This document shows positions 11,621 to 43,650 of a stretch of DNA of 64,000 nt, piece by piece (within the stretch, counting starts at the first letter, position 1; the number at the start of each line of letters is the position of its first letter). This DNA comes from the human T2T-CHM13v2.0 reference genome, Homo sapiens, in the NCBI RefSeq assembly GCF_009914755.1, contig NC_060942.1. One strand, 5' to 3'. A program made the translations under genes and the position numbers. The notes under the pieces are model-generated. The model saw only the letters and a program-made list of their open reading frames with translations, did not search any database and was not told the origin of the DNA.

Positions 11621-13501
11621 TTCAGTAGATCAAACATATTCCTACATCTTTTATAATACCAGTCAGTATTTGCCCCGAGTATCTTAGAATGATTTGTATT
11701 TTGTTGTTTTACTGGGTAGCTTGTTTTGATAATCCCAACTAAAAAAAATGTGGTACTTTATCAGTGATCTGTCAACTGAAAATCTCTAGAGAAAACTAAC
11801 ACAATAAGGTAATAAATTCAAAAGTTCTTAATCTCCATATACATTTATGTAATCATCTACTCACTGAGTTTTTAAATAAAAAGTTAAATGCATATATATG
11901 AGAACAAATATAATTCATAAGATAATGGTAACTATTTATGTTTTTAAAAATATGATTTTAAAAAATATTACATCTTCCATTGAAAAAAGTAATATGGTTA
12001 TCTCTGAAAATCTAAAATCTAATACAGTGCCTGACAGGTAGACAAGTGGGTAGTGCCCAAAAATATGTTGACAAATGAATAATTGTAACCTGAGAATAAA
12101 AGTCAATCCTTAGTCAAATCAAATCCAGTCTTATATTTATTTTCTATTTGGCTATGATACTTCGTCTTTTTTCTATGGTCAGTTGAAATGCTGAAAGGAT
12201 CTTTCACATAATTAAAAAATTATCTTAACTACATTTAAAGCAAAAGAGGAATACGAATATAATTGTAAACCCTGATTACACATGATTACACATGTTCTTT
12301 TTGCTCTGAAGAAATATAATTCTTATTGTTAGGTTCTCCTCAAAATGTTGAAAAAAAGCATAACTCTTCTCTAATGCAGAGACTAAATACTATTAAAATT
12401 TGGGACAAACTAAAAACTGTCCCAATCGTAACATGGCAGTTAAATTCACGTTAAAAGGAAAGTATACTTCATAAATGACAGAATTCAAGTTTCTGCTTGT
12501 CTTCTTTTGTTATTAGCTCTTCACCACAAAAATAGGTGTGAGTATAGATCAGTAGCTGTTCCATGTGATACACACAGATGCCCTCAAACAAGTTTAAAGT
12601 AGAACAAGTCTTCCACCCAGGATAAGAACGTATCACTTCTCTGTATTTAACTGTTTTATCTACCCCATTTGGAAGAGCACACTAGCACCAAGGCACCATT
12701 CTTCAAAACAATGTTTCTTTTATAATTTGTTTTGCTTTTTTTTCCTATCAGAAACTAGAAAATCAATACTTTTTATTTAGCCATTATATTGATAATTTTC
12801 ATTTGCTTGGGTCAACATTTAAGGAGTACACGAGGTGCTTTTTGTGATTAACATTGGGAGTTAAAAATGTTAAAATTCCTGATTGTCAGGGAATATCTGA
12901 TATGTTTACAATAAAGCCTCCAGGAGCTATGTATATAGGGCGAATATAAAATCATCTGTCAATCTTTTAAAATTTTTTTCCCATTAAACCCTCATTAACA
13001 TGTAACCATATAATAAGGATAATGGTAATTTGTGATCATATATTGAGGTAATGCAAGTCTTATGACTTACATCACATCTTTACATGGTGGGTTTTTTTGA
13101 TTCTGAATTTTTGAGGCATAAAGATAAATAGAAGAGCATCTTATATGTATATATTTTCAAAGATTTACTAAAGCCAAACTCCAGAGTGTTCAGGGAGACT
13201 CAACTAGTCGTCTTATTGAGTTAAAGTAAAAGAAAGAAAAGAAAAAATAAACAGAATAGGGTAAAATGAAAACTTTGGAAAGATGTGAAAAGATAGATTT
13301 TAACTAATGTGATTGTAATTGTGCCATCACTGAGTACACAGGTGGAAGAATTGTAGAGTTTGAGTACAAATGTGTACCTTAGATATGGTTTATGTTCACT
13401 CTTTCATTTAAAAGCTGAATTTTAGAGAGGGTTAAATGGCATTTCACAAAGCTAGTTGGCAGCAGAGCCCAGACTAAAACCAAGATTTCCTTGTAGGCAT
13501 G

Positions 13502-38527: not shown

Positions 38528-41111
38528 CACTTTAATGTAAGAAAGCAGTGCCTCCATAAGCTTCCTCCAGGTGGACTGAGTCATGCAAATTGCTTTGTAT
38601 TTGCATTGCTTGCTTTTCCTCCCATTCCCATTTATCAGCTGTCACTGGCCACAGTGGGAGCTCTGAGATTTACAGTGGCTTTTTAAAAGCTATCATTTCA
38701 TATACTCATGGTAAAAAATATTTCAAAAATTACTGTGAGGGCTAAGGACCCCATTTGGCACGAGAACTTGACTAAAACATTATACCAAGCACATTATCAG
38801 AAGCTAAAAGCTAATGCTGAGATCTGCTTCATGCTGTTGTTTTATGAAGGATTTCTTTTTTCGCATCTTTTTTTCCTTGAAAGGATTCAATATCAGTTCA
38901 GGAGGCTGACTTCAGGCTTTAAGGCTCTGCCATAAACTGGTATATAAACCTACCCATGAAAGTCTTAAAGTTTAGTCAAAGCCTTAATACAGAAACCATT
39001 CGGAAAGGGTGCAGGGTAGAAGGGGCCACATGTAGATACTTTGCCTTTGTACTTTTTCTAATGATAAACGGTCAATTAGCTAGCATAGGAATAGCTTGCC
39101 AGATGAATCAAATTAATAGCTAGCAGATTTTTTTTTTACTAACAGCAGCAAACAACCCAGCTTCAGCAGTTGTCTTCCTGTTCCTTCCCTTTTGTTTTAA
39201 ACTGAATAATCTTACCCTTCAAATAAAATATTTGATTGGCTACAAGCAACTGACTAACAGCTAGCCAACACTGGAGGAAGCAAGAAACTAGAAACTAAGA
39301 AAATAAGGCTGAAACACACACAGCCAAGAGCATTTACTCATCCAACAAACATTTATTGAGCACCATAGGCTTGAATGTAATAAGCATCCAATAAAATATC
39401 TGGGGAAAGTATGACCAAGTATGACCCTCTGGTAGTTAGACATTCAGACTGTGTTTTTCTTTCACACATTAGCTTTTGCTCACTATTAACAATGCTGTAA
39501 GTTTTGACAAAAAGAAATATTTCCGTTGCAAGCAAACTGAAGTAATGTGTCTTTTTATAGCAATATTTGCTTGCCAGGGTTTCCAAACTAGACTAATGGA
39601 GTTCGATCATGGAAATTAATGGTTAAAGATATGTTCTACAAGGCAAAGCAGTTGGAATGGTTTTAGTCAATTACTGAAGGCAATTACATTTTATATTGTA
39701 AAGGGACTCTCTTATGGCCAACCTGACTGCCTGTATTTAAGAGTTATTATCTTTGTTATTTGTATGATAAAATATTTAACAGAATAAGGATTAGAGGGTT
39801 AAGAAAAGTGAGGAGTGGAGACTGGTTTGGCAATTTCAAGAATCGGAAAGAGAAGACGAGTATCTTATGCTTTTATTTCCCTGTTCAAATGCCAGCAGCC
39901 ACACACTCAAATTGCCTGAGTCATGATCATGCAAAATTAACCTTGCCTATTTCTGGGATGAAAAATAATTTGAAAGTATGCTTGTAATATAAGATTTTTA
40001 TTTAAACATATGTGTAAATATTGATATTCACTTGAAAACAAACTATAAAATGTTTAAATGAAAAAAACTATCAGATTTCTAAGCAATAAAAGTGAGATAT
40101 TAGTGCTCTTAATACAAAAAACGTGGGAATAGGTCAGAAGTAGTATAATAACTCTAGTTTTTGTCAAGGGTTTGGCCTATAATTCCAGAAAATAAAAACT
40201 CTTGTTTTCATGGTAGTATGAAGGAAACGTTTTCTGAAGACAGAGCTAAGATTTAGACTGATACACAATTTCTGCAATGGCTTTGCATCTGATAAAAATT
40301 AGAATGCACTGGAATATCCTAAAACATTGCCAGAGACTTCTTGAAGGAAGATGTTGATTTATATGTTGTATAGATATAATAACTGATTGAAATACTCTCA
40401 CTGATGTTAACTTGCAGCAAAGTTAAAGGCTTGACATGCCTTTTCAATTACAATTTACTTAATCTCAGTATTTCATGTTTCTCTGGTTGGTTGGTGATGA
40501 TTACAGAGTGAAAAATATGTATTGACTAAGGTAATTACTTAAGTCAAATATTTATAAAATGTATTCAACGGAAGTTACGTTTCACTATACTGTGGGTTTA
40601 CTTTTTGTACTGTGTGCTTCTTAGAGCAATACGTTTTACCACCCTGTATACCCCTCAGTGTTATAGATATAAAAATTTAAGTATCCAGATAAGGGGATAG
40701 ATGGTTGATAGTAGGCAGGCATATAATATAGAGATGAATAAATAGATAAAGTTGTTAGTTATACTTTGATAATGGTCACGTATTTTATTCTTCCTTCGTT
40801 CGGTTGTGATAGTCAAAACAAGTAGAGAGCAAGGAGCCTCAGTAGTTTTTTTACTAGGTGCTAGTCCCTAATGGAATCAGGGTAGAATAAAACTATTGAA
40901 AATAAGGAAGAAATAAAAAGAGAAATTCAGAACCTCAGCACCCTTCCACGAACACGTACGTTTTTCACAAAACTACATTTAGAAGCCTAGTTATCCACTG
41001 AGTGCGGTGGCTCATCCCTGTAATCCCAGCACTTTGAGAGTTTGATTTTTTTTTCCCCCAGAGCAGAAGCGAGAGTTTATTAAAAAGCTTTAGAACAGCA
41101 AGGGAAAGAAA

Positions 41112-41217
41112 AGAAGGAAAGTTCACCTTGGGAGAGAGCAAAGCAGGCGCCTTGAGAAACCAAGAGAAGGAAAGTTCACCTTGGGAGAAAGCAAAGCAGG
41201 CGCCCTGAGAAACCAAG
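41112..41217. repeat. 53-bp tandem duplication in the LTR R region
   Basis: agaaggaaagttcaccttgggaga...gagaaaccaag present twice with 2 mismatches. Confidence 0.95.
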
Positions 41218-41292
41218 TGCGCAGCTTGACCTCTTGAATTCGGGTTTTATACTTCGGGTTGGCTTACTTCCGGGATCTTGTATTACTTCTCC

Positions 41293-42094
41293 CTACTCCT
41301 GAAATCTTATTGGGAAGCTGCTGATCAGTTTCAGGTGTTTTCTATCTAGTAGGAGCCTGCCTTTCCCGGGGGCCGGCTGTGACCAATTATTACTACTCCT
41401 GAAATCTTATTGGGAAGCTGCTGATCAGTTTCAGGTGTTTTCTGTCTAGTAGGAGCCTGCCTTTCCCGGGGGCCGGTTGTGACCAATTATTACTACTCCT
41501 GAAATCTTACTGGGAAGCTGCTGATCAGTTTCAGGTGTTTTCTATCTAGTAGGAGCCTGCCTTTCCCGGGGGCTGGCTGTGACCAATTATTACTACTCCT
41601 GAAATCTTACTGGGAAGCTGCTGATCAGTTTCAGGTGTTTTCTGTCTAGTAGGAGCCTGCCTTTCCCGGGGGCCGGTTGTGACCAATTATTACTACTCCT
41701 GAAATCTTACTGGGAAGCTGCTGATCAGTTTCAGGTGTTTTCTATCTAGTAGGAGCCTGCCTTTCCCGGGGGCTGGCTGTGACCAATTATTACTACTCCT
41801 GAAATCTTACTGGGAAGCTGCTGATCAGTTTCAGGTGTTTTCTGTCTAGTAGGAGCCTGCCTTTCCCGGGGGCCGGTTGTGACCAATTATTACTACTCCT
41901 GAAATCTTACTGGGAAGCTGCTGATCAGTTTCAGGTGTTTTCTATCTATTAAGAGCCTGCCTTTCCCTGGGGCCGGCTGCGACCAATTATTACTACTCCT
42001 GAAATCTTACTGGGAAGCTGCTGATCAGTTTCAGGTGTTTTCTATCTATTAAGAGGCTGCCTTTCCCTGGGGCCGGCTGCGACCAATTATTACT
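41293..42094. repeat. Minisatellite, 8 x 100 bp, inside the LTR U3
   Basis: gaaatctta recurs at 41301, 41401, ... 42001; units differ by only a few substitutions. Confidence 0.99.
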
Positions 42095-42892
42095 TTACCA
42101 AAACAGTTAACAACCGCCTGACCATCAGCTGATTGTTGCCCAACACTGCTGGTGTGTGTTGGGAGTGGGGCTTCTCTCTCTTGCCCTGCTCATACATGAC
42201 TAGCTACCTGCTGTAACATTTCTCACCTCAAGAGTCCAGGACCTCAAATCTTTGGATGAAGGTCTGTCATCCAAAATGGATGACTTCTGTTTTCTGTAAC
42301 TGCTTCCTGCTGACAGAGGGGTGGTCGTGGTCGGGTGGATCTTGGCTCCTTGCTACCCGTCAGGGCTGAGTTGGCTGCATCAGTTGGTGAAAGTGGTATC
42401 CAGCCAGGTCCAAGGGAGACAGGGGCAGGATTTCACCACTGTCTTGTCCCACTGATGGGAAGTGCAGAGGTCCTCTCTAGAAGGGTGACTCTTGAATATT
42501 GAGAGGATGGTTTTCCTCACTGAGGATTGTCTGGAGCTCAATGGCCACTAGGAAGGTATCTGAGTCATGTGGACCAAATATGTTAGCAGTGGCAGATATC
42601 CGAGTTACGCAAGTTACCGGCAGCGAATCCATATGGGTCCACAGCAACCTCAGTCCTTGTCTCTTCAGAAGAAAGAATTCTACTGAGGGGCATAAGGCAG
42701 AAGGAGAGACCTAGGCAAGTTGCAAAGCAGAAGTGAGCATGTATTAAAAAGCTTTAGAACAGTAAGGAAAGGAAGAAAAGAAAAGAAGGAAAGTTCAACT
42801 TGGAAGAGGGCCAAGCCGGCAACTTGGCAGAAGGATTGCTTGAGCCCAGGAGTTAAGACCAGTCTGGGCAATATAGTGAGACTCCATCTCTG

Positions 42893-42922
42893 CATACATA
42901 CATACATACATACATACATACA

Positions 42923-42952
<30 letters not shown>
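42893..42952. repeat. (CATA)15 microsatellite in the Alu middle linker
   Basis: Directly visible. Confidence 0.97.
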
Positions 42953-42953
<1 letters not shown>

Positions 42954-43650
42954 TGCAGGGTATGATGGCACACGCCTGTAGTCCTAGCTACTCTGGAGGT
43001 TGAGATGGGAGGGTCACTGAGCCTGGGAAGTTGAGGCTGCAGTGAGCCATGATCACACCACTGCACTGTAGCCTGGGCTAAACAGTAAGACCCTGTCTTA
43101 AAAAAATATTTTTTTAAAGTCTAGTTATTTTGAATCTCGCTTTTTCAGCTGTGCTCCTTGAAGTGGCATTACCTCTTCTTTACGAAAAGGAGAATATCGT
43201 CAGCCAACTGTCATCACTGATTTTGCCAAATCAAAGTAAAAGTCTGGCAATGTGGGAATATATCATTGTCAAGTAAACTGCAGGTAGCACTGAGGAATAC
43301 AAATATATCTTTAGAATTTTCAAATATTTTTTAGGTGAAGCTGAGATCAATATGAATTAAATTTAGCAGACTACATTCAGAAAACAAAAGCAGAAAACTT
43401 TCATATATTTAAAGTTTAAGAGATTAAGATTCATTAATAAGCAGCACATGTACTCAAAGTTTTTTAAATGCATGGCGTGGTAACAAATTCATTCTATAGT
43501 AAGACACCTATAACTTCAGTTGTCTGTCAGCCTCAAAGCTTTGACTTAGCTCAGTTTTGCTGTATTCATTTCTCTCATCCATTGCTAGATACACACGTAA
43601 AGATTGACATAGCAGGACAGAGATCCTGCATCTACCTTCATCTTTGGAGA

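What the first reader, a model, noticed from the sequence alone, without database searches (positions are those of the whole stretch)
42477..42580. Fossil splice junction joining the PBS leader to the last 22 codons of a syncytin-2-like env
Seen: the minus strand reads PBS-ACCTTCCTAGTG|GCC ATT GAG CTC CAG ... CCC TTC TAG, i.e. AIELQTILSEENHPLNIQESPF*. Knowledge (recalled): syncytin-2 (ERVFRD-1) ends ...RLQ-AIKLQTNLSAGRHPRNIQESPF*, giving 16/22 identity with the stop at the same place. The Gln codon just before Ala would supply a CAG| acceptor, and gammaretroviral major donors lie just after the PBS. Inference: gag, pol and almost all of env were removed by splicing, not by DNA deletion. The copy would then record a short, fully spliced ERV-FRD transcript expressed in the germline or early embryo, possibly from ERVFRD-1 itself or a sister provirus.
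Basis: partly seen in the sequence, partly recalled or inferred. Interest (0 to 1): 0.78.

Follow-up and report, generated by a model that had tools for sequence, protein, structure and literature searches.

The report
Spliced HERV-FRD retrocopy inside an Alu
This is a 1.8-kb dead copy of a short spliced RNA from the retrovirus family that gave us syncytin-2, apparently pasted into an Alu by LINE-1 machinery; the splice scar is real, but the copy is an inert relic and one of several.

Summary
On the minus strand, PBS-leader ...CCTAGTG (ends 42546) is followed directly by GCC ATT GAG ... TTC TAG (42545-42477). That peptide matches the last 22 residues of the syncytin-2 ORF at 16/22.

The splicing inference is supported. 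In ERVFRD-1 the leader reads ...CCCTAGTG|GTAAGA, and the env tail is preceded by a pyrimidine tract plus CAG|.

Three other loci carry the same junction. Three more join a second GT donor to the same acceptor.

It runs R-U5-PBS-SD|SA-env tail-PPT-U3-R-A9. There is no 5' U3 and no 3' U5, so it is a LINE-1-type processed retrocopy, not a provirus. It sits inside a cleanly split Alu.

Sister copies start at the same R nucleotide, end in A-tails and have 9-17-nt target-site duplications. The window copy has none.

The source was a sister lineage, not ERVFRD-1 (74% identity, different well-supported clade).

The shared stop position is coincidental: 30 of 41 copies read TAC there.

It is a new member of known kinds (HERV-W processed pseudogenes, spliced HERV-H copies). 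Interest is moderate.

The parts
42723..42826 (-). 5' R of the retrocopy, lacking the first 13 nt of R. Base 42826 could belong to the Alu or to the insert.
   Evidence: L002, L003 and L018 begin GCACTTGGTTTCT CAAGT..., and L004, L008 and L019 begin at or within a few nt of the same point. The window begins at CAAGTTGCC. No U3 lies upstream; the flank is Alu.
42581..42722 (-). U5. It includes a duplicated module of U5 end plus decayed PBS (about 42612-42581) and ends ...GCTAACA.
   Evidence: 24 full LTRs run on through U5, most to the equivalent of 42613 (...GGTAACA). L024, L025 and L057 run to the second end at 42581; L028 and L062 show the same duplicated module; L004 keeps both PBS copies.
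42559..42576 (-). Primer-binding site TGGTCCACATGACTCAGA, preceded by TATT (42580-42577).
   Evidence: It is the same element as the ERVFRD-1 PBS TGGTGCAGTGACTCGGAT. Assignment to tRNA-His is recalled, not tested.
42546..42558 (-). Leader after the PBS, ending at the major splice donor exon end (...TACCTTCCTAGTG).
   Evidence: Unspliced relatives continue with GTAAGA (ERVFRD-1, L008, L050).
42477..42545 (-). Last 22 env codons plus TAG. This is the exon downstream of the env-tail acceptor (SA2).
   Evidence: All tail-containing loci begin their homology to the window within a few bases of 42546.
42219..42476 (-). Region between the env stop and the LTR, with the purine tract GAGGTGAGAAA at its 3' end (about 42229-42219).
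   Evidence: The ERVFRD-1 5' LTR homology starts at the equivalent of 42218 (TGTTACAG / TGTTGGAG).
41221..42218 (-). U3 of the 3' LTR portion. It contains an 8 x 100-bp tandem array (42094-41293) and TATAAAA (41251-41245).
41055..41220 (-). 3' R, starting GCACTTGG 31 nt after the TATA box. It has a 53-bp internal duplication (41217-41112) and AATAAA at 41081-41076. No U5 follows.
41046..41054 (-). A9 tail, about 20 nt after AATAAA and preceded by GGGGG.
   Evidence: It lies in the same position as the A-tails of L006, L007, L019 and L029.
40995..41045 (+). 5' piece of the host Alu that was split by the insertion.
   Evidence: 41005-41045 aligns to positions 65-105 of another Alu in the window.
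42827..43126 (+). Remainder of the same Alu, with (CATA)15 at 42893-42952 and its own A-tail.
   Evidence: 42839-42891 aligns to positions 119-172 of the same reference Alu, so 42826/7 corresponds to position 106/107. The Alu is cut cleanly, with no duplication or loss.

Best explanation
Window 42826..41046 (minus strand) is a processed retrocopy of a short, singly spliced RNA from a HERV-FRD-group provirus (the MER50-type LTR family).

The RNA started at the LTR transcription start. It ran through R, U5, the PBS and 13 nt of leader. It was spliced from the major donor (…TAGTG|GT) to an acceptor 66 nt before the env stop (…Y-tract CAG|GCC), which removed gag, pol and all but 22 codons of env. 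In ERVFRD-1 coordinates that intron is 7,914 nt. The RNA then continued through the PPT and U3 and was polyadenylated about 20 nt after the AATAAA in R.

That mRNA was reverse-transcribed into the germline genome by a non-retroviral route, most likely LINE-1 target-primed reverse transcription. It landed inside an Alu in what is now a DOK6 intron, antisense to DOK6. It lacks a 5' U3 and so has no promoter of its own. It has since decayed, and its U3 100-bp unit has expanded to 8 copies.

Shown here:
- the junction
- GT/AG in unspliced relatives
- the R…R-A(n) architecture
- recurrence at other loci with their own target-site duplications

Inferred: LINE-1 as the enzyme, germline expression, and an age of a few tens of millions of years.
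For: (1) Junction and splice signals. ERVFRD-1 reads TTCCCTAGTG|GTAAGACA and CTAAATCTAATAACCCAATTTGTCTCCTCTCGCCTTCAG|GCCATAAAG. GT follows the leader in 4 of 5 unspliced leaders. AG precedes the tail in 25 of 28 env-contiguous copies.

(2) The same acceptor takes a second donor. L007, L019 and L029 join …CAAAGTAAG to the tail, and in ERVFRD-1 that sequence is followed by GTGATC.

(3) Recurrence. A junction-spanning query (40 of 71 candidates scored) finds 4 loci that cross the junction: the window, L002/L047, L003/L046 and L004/L048.

(4) mRNA architecture.
- L002, L003, L004, L018 and L019 start at or within 2 nt of GCACTTGG; L008 starts 4 nt upstream; the window starts 13 nt in.
- 3' ends lie about 20 nt after AATAAA with A-runs in the window, L004, L006, L007, L019 and L029, and L002 has A20.
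- Of 39 non-window tail-bearing loci, 9 end R-A(n), 24 have U5 and 6 are undetermined. All 5 scorable spliced copies are R-A(n).

(5) Target-site duplications in sisters: L002 12 nt, L003 10, L004 11, L019 14, L029 17 and L008 9. Shuffled flanks reached these lengths in 2, 9, 15, 0, 0 and 9 of 300 trials respectively.

(6) Internal contrast. A roughly 640-nt env deletion shared by 7 loci has microhomology and no GT-AG. Splice-like and deletion-like junctions can therefore be told apart in this family.

(7) Source lineage. On a tree of 34 rows and 542 columns, the window falls in a supported clade (99/86) with L047, L006, L016, L029, L007 and L019, all of R-A(n) type. ERVFRD-1 lies in another supported clade (95/92). 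ERVFRD-1 ranks 22nd of 40 by identity to the window, at 74.0% against 80.5% for the best.
Against: The window copy itself shows no target-site duplication. The best flank match is 7 nt, reached by 188 of 300 shuffles, and the Alu is split without gain or loss. Its A-run is only 9 nt and is preceded by GGGGG. The LINE-1 attribution for this particular copy therefore rests on architecture and on its sisters.

The G at 42546 could come from either side of the junction, so one junction alone could not exclude a deletion with 1-nt microhomology.

Forcing the three scorable SD1 copies into one clade is not rejected (p-AU 0.057), so a single splicing event that founded a master copy is not excluded.

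Each genome search scored only 40 candidates (of 1725, 71 and 1645), and my loci are biased towards relatives of the window.

No RNA data were available to show that the donor-acceptor pair is used today. The family name (MER50/HERV-FRD) rests on homology to ERVFRD-1 plus the literature, not on RepeatMasker.
Confidence: 0.87

Rival explanations
1. One splicing event produced a single spliced master element. All four junction-bearing copies descend from its transcripts rather than from repeated splicing of full-length proviral RNA.
For: The AU test does not reject monophyly of the window, L047 and L048 (p 0.057). The window and L047 sit in one clade.
Against: The free tree places L048 with L072, away from the window clade (86/89; log-likelihood 38 lower when the three are held together). 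The window clade also holds copies with env sequence upstream of the acceptor (L006, L016) and SD2-spliced copies, so its source still had the intron. R…R-A(n) copies lack U3 upstream, so they cannot regenerate an RNA starting at the same R nucleotide. No two-LTR copy with the junction was seen among 40 of 71 candidates scored.
Confidence: 0.12
2. The junction is a DNA-level or reverse-transcriptase template-switch deletion in a provirus that happens to fall at GT…AG. The element is a degraded provirus.
For: There is a one-base ambiguity (G) at the junction. This family does carry such deletions, for example the roughly 640-nt env deletion with microhomology.
Against: The breakpoints coincide exactly with a strong donor (GTAAGA) and a strong acceptor (branch-like CTAAT, a pyrimidine tract of about 20 nt, then CAG). 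A second GT donor joins the same acceptor in 3 loci. The 5' U3 and 3' U5 are absent, with an A-tail at the poly(A) site. Sister copies have 9-17-nt duplications, not the 4-6 bp expected for retroviral integration (the 4-6-bp figure is recalled).
Confidence: 0.03
3. The spliced RNA was packaged and reverse-transcribed by the retrovirus's own machinery, giving a spliced provirus as reported for HERV-H and for the MLV SD' RNA. Both outer LTR halves were lost later.
For: Spliced retroviral RNAs can be packaged (recalled for the MLV SD' RNA). Six proviral-type loci with full 3' LTRs have an unrelated internal sequence joined at the same acceptor.
Against: This would need two independent truncations, exactly at the R start and at the poly(A) site, plus addition of an A-tail. 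It would need that repeatedly, in the window, L002, L004 and L019.
Confidence: 0.03
4. The retrocopy derives from ERVFRD-1 (the syncytin-2 locus) itself.
For: 16/22 amino-acid identity and a stop codon at the same position.
Against: DNA identity to ERVFRD-1 is 74.0%, against 79-80.6% to L047, L006, L029 and L007; ERVFRD-1 ranks 22nd of 40. ERVFRD-1 falls in a different supported clade. The stop is TAG versus TAA at a codon that is TAC in 30 of 41 copies. The ERVFRD-1 5' LTR lacks about 190 nt of R-U5 that the window copy has, unless that loss came later.
Confidence: 0.02

Closest known systems
HERV-W processed pseudogenes made by LINE-1 (Pavlicek 2002 and Costas 2002, recalled and not held; Grandi 2016 PMC5016936 and Grandi & Tramontano 2017 PMC5537654, passages and abstract seen)
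   Same: Colinear with retroviral mRNA: R-U5…U3-R followed by poly(A), with no 5' U3 and no 3' U5. Sister copies have long target-site duplications and frequent 5' truncation (L029, probably L007).
   Different: A different HERV group (FRD/MER50-type LTR). The copied RNA is spliced so that only 22 env codons of coding sequence remain. The window copy has no target-site duplication. [quoted passage not shown]
Spliced HERV-H copies in genomic DNA (Goodchild, Freeman & Mager 1995; seen only as described in Lam et al. 2025, PMC11998498)
   Same: A spliced retroviral RNA fixed as heritable DNA, and an intron-exact junction.
   Different: As described there, the spliced form was found among cloned HERV-H proviruses and uses a cryptic site in a deleted element. 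Here the copies are R…R-A(n) retrocopies, and the donor is the canonical major donor.
Mtv env deletion matching the rem intron (Lam, Shaffer, Boso & Kozak 2025, PMC11998498; passages seen)
   Same: An env deletion that coincides exactly with an intron, is generated recurrently, and is inferred to come from spliced cDNA.
   Different: The sequenced Mtv example has provirus-like LTRs and keeps an ORF (Rem). Here almost everything is removed, no ORF is conserved, and the ends are mRNA ends.
ERVFRD-1 / syncytin-2 locus (contig 6, env ORF 538 aa)
   Same: The same PBS-leader-donor sequence, the same acceptor context, and homologous env tail, PPT and U3.
   Different: 74% identity and a different clade. 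ERVFRD-1 is a provirus with an intact env. The window element is a promoterless retrocopy holding 22 codons.
Ordinary LINE-1 processed pseudogenes of cellular mRNAs
   Same: Intron loss at GT-AG, a start at the transcription start site, and a poly(A) tail.
   Different: The parent 'gene' is a provirus, so the copy carries LTR parts at both ends and mimics a small LTR element.

Membership tests
LINE-1-type processed retrocopy of a retroviral mRNA (R-polyA pseudogene) | The 5' end lies at or just inside R, with no U3 upstream | tested here: met
   The window starts 13 nt into R at 42826, and the upstream flank is Alu. Sisters L002, L003, L004, L008, L018 and L019 start at or within 4 nt of GCACTTGG.
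LINE-1-type processed retrocopy of a retroviral mRNA (R-polyA pseudogene) | The 3' end lies at the R polyadenylation site with an A-tail, with no U5 | tested here: met
   AATAAA is at 41081-41076 and A9 at 41054-41046, followed by Alu. The 5' copy continues into 142 nt of U5 that the 3' end lacks.
LINE-1-type processed retrocopy of a retroviral mRNA (R-polyA pseudogene) | A target-site duplication of roughly 7-20 bp flanks the insert | tested here: not met
   Window: best flank match is 7 nt, reached by 188 of 300 shuffles, and the Alu is split cleanly. The feature is met in sisters L002 (12 nt), L003 (10), L004 (11), L019 (14), L029 (17) and L008 (9).
LINE-1-type processed retrocopy of a retroviral mRNA (R-polyA pseudogene) | The intron is removed exactly at GT…AG of the parent | tested here: met
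   ERVFRD-1 reads …CCCTAGTG|GTAAGACA and …CGCCTTCAG|GCCATAAAG. The window reads …CCTAGTG|GCCATTGAG.
HERV-FRD group (Repbase MER50 per Mayer 2011 PMC3113919 Table 2 and de Parseval 2005 PMC1236922 table) | Sequence homology to the ERVFRD-1 env and LTR | tested here: met
   74.0% over 561 columns, E 5e-96. 16/22 amino acids, E 1e-08. The PBS-leader is shared.
HERV-FRD group (Repbase MER50 per Mayer 2011 PMC3113919 Table 2 and de Parseval 2005 PMC1236922 table) | Classified as MER50 / MER50-int by RepeatMasker or Dfam | not testable with these tools
   No repeat library is available here. Vargiu 2016 (PMC4724089) lists HERVFRD under 'ERV3-1-i/LTR58 MER50' and has a separate 'MER50like' supergroup, so the Repbase label is uncertain.
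Spliced provirus made by retroviral reverse transcription | Two complete LTRs (U3-R-U5) flank the spliced interior | tested here: not met
   There is no 5' U3 and no 3' U5 in the window, L002 or L004. L003 also lacks the 5' U3 and ends in an A-rich tail inside U3.

The most novel reading that the evidence does not exclude
The HERV-FRD group, like HERV-W, was mobilised repeatedly by LINE-1. Its retrocopies preserve the splicing programme of the extinct FRD virus:
- the major donor after the PBS
- a second donor just after the pol stop
- a strong, previously unrecorded acceptor 66 nt before the env stop

That acceptor generated a very short leader-to-env-tail RNA and an env-less pol-containing RNA. 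It also marks the boundary of a non-autonomous proviral subfamily.

This would contradict the printed statement that HERV-W is the sole HERV group mobilised by LINE-1. It would also give a testable prediction of SD1-SA2 and SD2-SA2 junction reads from ERVFRD-1 and its relatives in placenta or germline.
Probability: 0.5. Interest if true: 0.55.

Novelty: new member of a known kind. Interest (0 to 1): 0.45.

Why it matters
The copy is a dated snapshot of how an extinct retrovirus, the one that donated syncytin-2, spliced its RNA in the primate germline.

It shows that mRNA-type (R…R-polyA) retrocopies are not confined to HERV-W. At least 10 of the 34 tail-bearing copies whose 3' end I could score, counting the window, are of this type. 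L003 and L008 look the same by their target-site duplications and A-tails.

There is a practical consequence. Such copies look like small LTR elements or fragmented 'LTR + int + LTR' annotations, yet they are promoterless pseudogenes. Expression or enhancer studies that count MER50/HERV-FRD loci should treat them separately.

For the window itself there is no sign of function. The copy lies antisense in a DOK6 intron and holds only 22 env codons.

Tried and rejected
Clustering the insert's 5' R and 3' R with the two LTRs of ERVFRD-1 is not possible. The ERVFRD-1 5' LTR aligns to its 3' LTR only up to the R start (82.1% over 514 columns) and lacks about 190 nt of R-U5.
- **Target-site duplication in the window.** None found. 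An early alignment that put the insert start at 42837 was wrong; 42827-42837 is Alu.
- **Duplication for L007.** Not found with my assumed 5' boundary. The boundary itself is uncertain.
- **Coding potential of the spliced RNAs.**
  - The window leader ATG (ATGACTCAG…) hits a stop after 6 codons.
  - The in-frame ATG six codons into the tail, present in many copies, is ACA in the window and ACG in ERVFRD-1.
  - The ATG in the SD2 exon gives different frames in L029, L019 and ERVFRD-1.
  - No conserved ORF emerged, so I dropped the idea of an accessory gene.
- **Internal sequence of the six '…AAGAGGGATG|GCC' loci.** No blastn hit to the ERVFRD-1 provirus except distal gag/pol-like pieces in L052. 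No tblastx hit (only L049 and L022 tested). The longest upstream stop-to-stop frame in L049 is 62 aa. Origin unresolved.
- **Wider census of R-U5 hits.** The census was not done.
- **Literature.** Searches found no description of HERV-FRD/MER50 processed or spliced copies. Pavlicek 2002 and Goodchild 1995 are not held, and Blaise 2003 was not sought, so prior description cannot be excluded. [quoted passage not shown]

Full report
**What is in the sequence**

Read on the minus strand, the window shows …ACTGCTAACA TATT TGGTCCACATGACTCAGA TACCTTCCTAGTG | GCC ATT GAG CTC CAG … TCA CCC TTC TAG. The 18-mer at 42576-42559 sits 4 nt after an LTR-like …CA end, as a primer-binding site should. The last leader base is 42546.

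The 22 codons at 42545-42480 translate to AIELQTILSEENHPLNIQESPF, and TAG lies at 42479-42477.

To avoid relying on a recalled protein, I located ERVFRD-1 in the window's own genome. A PF00429 scan gives one hit on contig 6 with an open frame of about 540 aa and no stops. The fetched stretch holds a 538-aa ORF ending …FVSSRLQAIKLQTNLSAGRHPRNIQESPF*. BLASTP gives 16/22 identities to residues 517-538, E 1e-08. At DNA level, window 42546..41995 aligns to the ERVFRD-1 env tail, PPT and U3 at 74.0% over 561 columns (E 5e-96), starting exactly at the junction.

**Is the junction a splice?**

- In ERVFRD-1 the PBS-leader reads TGGTGCAGTGACTCGGATACCTTCCCTAGTG|GTAAGACA.
- The env tail is preceded by CTAAATCTAATAACCCAATTTGTCTCCTCTCGCCTTCAG|GCCATAAAG. 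This is a branch-like CTAAT, a pyrimidine tract and CAG, with the CAG being the Gln codon before Ala.

Joining these two sites removes 7,914 nt in ERVFRD-1 and leaves 66 coding nt before the stop.

Other copies agree.
- The unspliced leaders of L008 and L050 continue GTAAGAG.
- The PBS-leader downstream of L049 continues GTAACA.
- L018 reads GAAAG. GT is therefore present in 4 of 5 unspliced leaders, counting ERVFRD-1.
- Among 28 copies with env contiguous across the site, 25 have AG (CAG 22, TAG 3).

The acceptor is also used with another donor. L007, L019 and L029 join …CCTCAAAGTAAG to the tail. That sequence lies just after the apparent pol stop and 127 nt before the env ATG. In ERVFRD-1 it is followed by GTGATC.

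As an internal contrast, a roughly 640-nt env deletion shared by 7 loci has T-rich microhomology and no GT…AG. In this family, splice scars and ordinary deletions look different.

**How common is it?**

A 607-nt query found three other loci matching across the junction (40 of 1725 candidates scored). A 135-nt junction-spanning query gave the following among 40 of 71 candidates scored:

| Match type | Loci |
|---|---|
| Crosses the junction (window, contig 6 at 152.09 Mb, contig 7 at 132.67 Mb, contig 14 at 70.15 Mb) | 4 |
| Starts within a few bases of the junction | 34 |
| Ends at the junction | 2 |

I classified 39 distinct non-window loci that hold the tail by what lies upstream:

| Upstream sequence | Loci |
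|---|---|
| Contiguous env | 27 |
| Major donor to tail (SD1-SA2) | 3 |
| Second donor to tail (SD2-SA2) | 3 |
| Unrelated non-coding sequence ending …AAGAGGGATG | 6 |

**What kind of element is it?**

That point is the PPT/U3 boundary (GAGGTGAGAAA|TGTTACAG). The ERVFRD-1 5' LTR begins at the equivalent base.

The element continues as follows:
- U3, including an 8 x 100-bp tandem array at 42094-41293 (96% matches)
- TATAAAA at 41251-41245
- R, beginning GCACTTGG at 41220, with a 53-bp duplication
- AATAAA at 41081-41076
- an A9 run at 41054-41046

Nothing resembling U5 follows. At the 5' end the element begins at 42826, 13 nt inside R, and no U3 lies upstream.

The structure is therefore R-U5-PBS-SD|SA-tail-PPT-U3-R-A(n), which is the order of an mRNA and not of a provirus.

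The sisters show the same plan.
- L002, L003, L004, L018 and L019 start at or within 2 nt of GCACTTGG, and L008 starts 4 nt upstream.
- L004, L006, L007, L019 and L029 end about 20 nt after AATAAA in A-runs, and L002 has A20.
- Of the 39 tail-bearing loci, 9 end R-A(n), 24 run on into U5 and 6 could not be scored. All 5 scorable spliced copies are R-A(n), and none of the six '…GGGATG' loci is.
- Target-site duplications of 9-17 nt flank L002, L003, L004, L019, L029 and L008. Shuffled flanks reached those lengths in 0-15 of 300 trials.

These are the hallmarks described for HERV-W processed pseudogenes made by LINE-1 (Grandi 2016 and Grandi & Tramontano 2017, passages seen; Pavlicek 2002 recalled).

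**The window copy's insertion site**

The insert lies inside an Alu. On another Alu of the window, 41005-41045 aligns to positions 65-105 and 42839-42891 to positions 119-172. So 41045 and 42826/7 are adjacent Alu positions.

There is no duplication and no loss, and no target-site duplication was detectable. That is atypical for endonuclease-dependent LINE-1 insertion and remains unexplained. The attribution for this copy rests on its mRNA architecture and on its sisters.

**Where did the RNA come from?**

It did not come from ERVFRD-1.
- Over the 552-nt tail-plus-U3 segment, the window is 80.5% identical to L047, 80.6% to L006, 79.7% to L029 and 79.2% to L007.
- It is 74.0% identical to ERVFRD-1, which ranks 22nd of 40.

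In a maximum-likelihood tree (34 rows, 542 columns), the window groups with L047, L006, L016, L029, L007 and L019 with support 99/86. All seven are of R-A(n) type. ERVFRD-1 sits in a different supported clade (95/92).

L048, the third scorable SD1 copy, groups with L072 elsewhere. Forcing the three SD1 copies together costs 38 log-likelihood units, with p-AU 0.057. Recurrent splicing is therefore favoured but not proven.

Terminal branches in the clade are 0.08-0.14 substitutions per site. With a neutral rate of about 2e-9 per year (recalled), this suggests tens of millions of years. That is compatible with entry of the FRD env more than 40 Myr ago (de Parseval 2005, passage seen) and with insertion after the Alu.

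**The shared stop codon**

The window has TAG and ERVFRD-1 has TAA. Among 41 aligned copies the codon is TAC in 30, TAT in 3, TAA in 2, TAG in 1 and something else in 5. Within the window's own clade, five of the seven rows read TAC; the window has TAG and L007 has TAA. The coincidence of stop position is therefore a private change in a pseudogene.

**Comparison with what is known**

| Known case | Relation to this element |
|---|---|
| HERV-W processed pseudogenes | Closest analogue |
| Spliced HERV-H copies (Goodchild 1995, via Lam 2025) | Also a spliced retroviral RNA fixed in DNA |
| Mtv env deletion matching the rem intron (Lam 2025) | Also an intron-exact env deletion |

[quoted passage not shown] Vargiu 2016 did not separate processed pseudogenes from proviruses.

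My searches found no description of FRD/MER50 processed or spliced copies. Key older papers are not held, so prior description cannot be excluded. The name MER50 for this family comes from Mayer 2011 and de Parseval 2005, and I could not run a repeat library.

**Verdict**

This is an exact splice scar recorded by retrocopying of a short leader-to-env-tail RNA.

- The copy is one of at least four.
- It came from a sister lineage, not ERVFRD-1.
- It is three times longer than stated.
- It has no sign of present function.

It is a new member of known kinds. The family-level implication is modestly interesting: FRD-group RNAs, spliced and unspliced, were mobilised as mRNA retrocopies through a previously unrecorded env-tail acceptor.

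Noticed in passing
window 41293-42094: The U3 100-bp unit is present as 8.0 tandem copies with 96% matches. Other family copies show one unit (two in L021). This looks like a locus-specific, post-insertion minisatellite expansion and could be a polymorphic VNTR. NCBI's mask did not list it among its longest masked stretches.
   Followed up: partly
window 41112-41217: A 53-bp tandem duplication (2.0 copies, 96%) lies inside the 3' R. It is absent from the 5' R of the same element.
   Followed up: no
window 42581-42612; L004 about 1650-1745 (oriented): This LTR lineage carries a tandem duplication of the U5 end plus PBS (…GGTAACA-TT-PBS-ACCTTCC-…GGTAACA). Most full LTRs (24 loci) run to the first …GGTAACA. 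L024, L025 and L057 run to the second end, L028 and L062 show the duplicated module, and L004 keeps both PBS copies readable.
   Followed up: partly
L043/L044 (contig 6, ERVFRD-1 locus): The ERVFRD-1 5' LTR lacks about 190 nt of R-U5. The sequence goes from GCACTTGGATCTCTCAAA straight into the PBS. Its two LTRs are only 82.1% identical over 514 columns.
   Followed up: partly
ERVFRD-1 env stop; 41-copy alignment: Syncytin-2's TAA lies at a codon that is TAC in 30 of 41 family copies. In some copies the env frame runs on; in L049 it continues for 41 more codons. Whether the family's env tail was longer than syncytin-2's, or the stop is ancestral, is open.
   Followed up: partly
L010/L059, L011/L049, L020/L052, L022, L062, L065: Six proviral-type loci with full 3' LTRs share more than 1 kb of AT-rich, non-coding internal sequence ending …CAGAAGAAACAAGAGGGATG, joined at exactly the same env-tail acceptor. 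It has no blastn match to the ERVFRD-1 provirus apart from distal gag/pol-like pieces in L052, and L049 and L022 gave no tblastx match. It may be a non-autonomous subfamily founded by a splice or recombination at that acceptor.
   Followed up: partly
L007, L019, L029; ERVFRD-1 contig 6 position 10973356: A second donor (…AAAGTAAG|GTGATC) lies just after the apparent pol stop and is joined to the env-tail acceptor. This removes env (1,674 nt in ERVFRD-1). L007 is contiguous with pol upstream, so an env-less pol-containing RNA was retrocopied.
   Followed up: partly
L008 (contig 3 at 113.19 Mb): A retrocopy of an unspliced, prematurely polyadenylated leader RNA: R-U5-PBS-donor plus about 105 nt of intron, then an A-rich tail and a 9-nt target-site duplication.
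   Followed up: partly
L006, L013, L016, L021, L023, L027, L030: Seven loci share a roughly 640-nt deletion inside env (ERVFRD-1 equivalents about 12627 to 13265-13280). It has T-rich microhomology and no GT-AG. It occurs in both proviral-type and R-polyA-type copies.
   Followed up: partly
window 42893-42952: A perfect (CATA)15 microsatellite lies in the middle of the host Alu. The right part of that Alu is only 70-76% identical to other Alus in the window.
   Followed up: no
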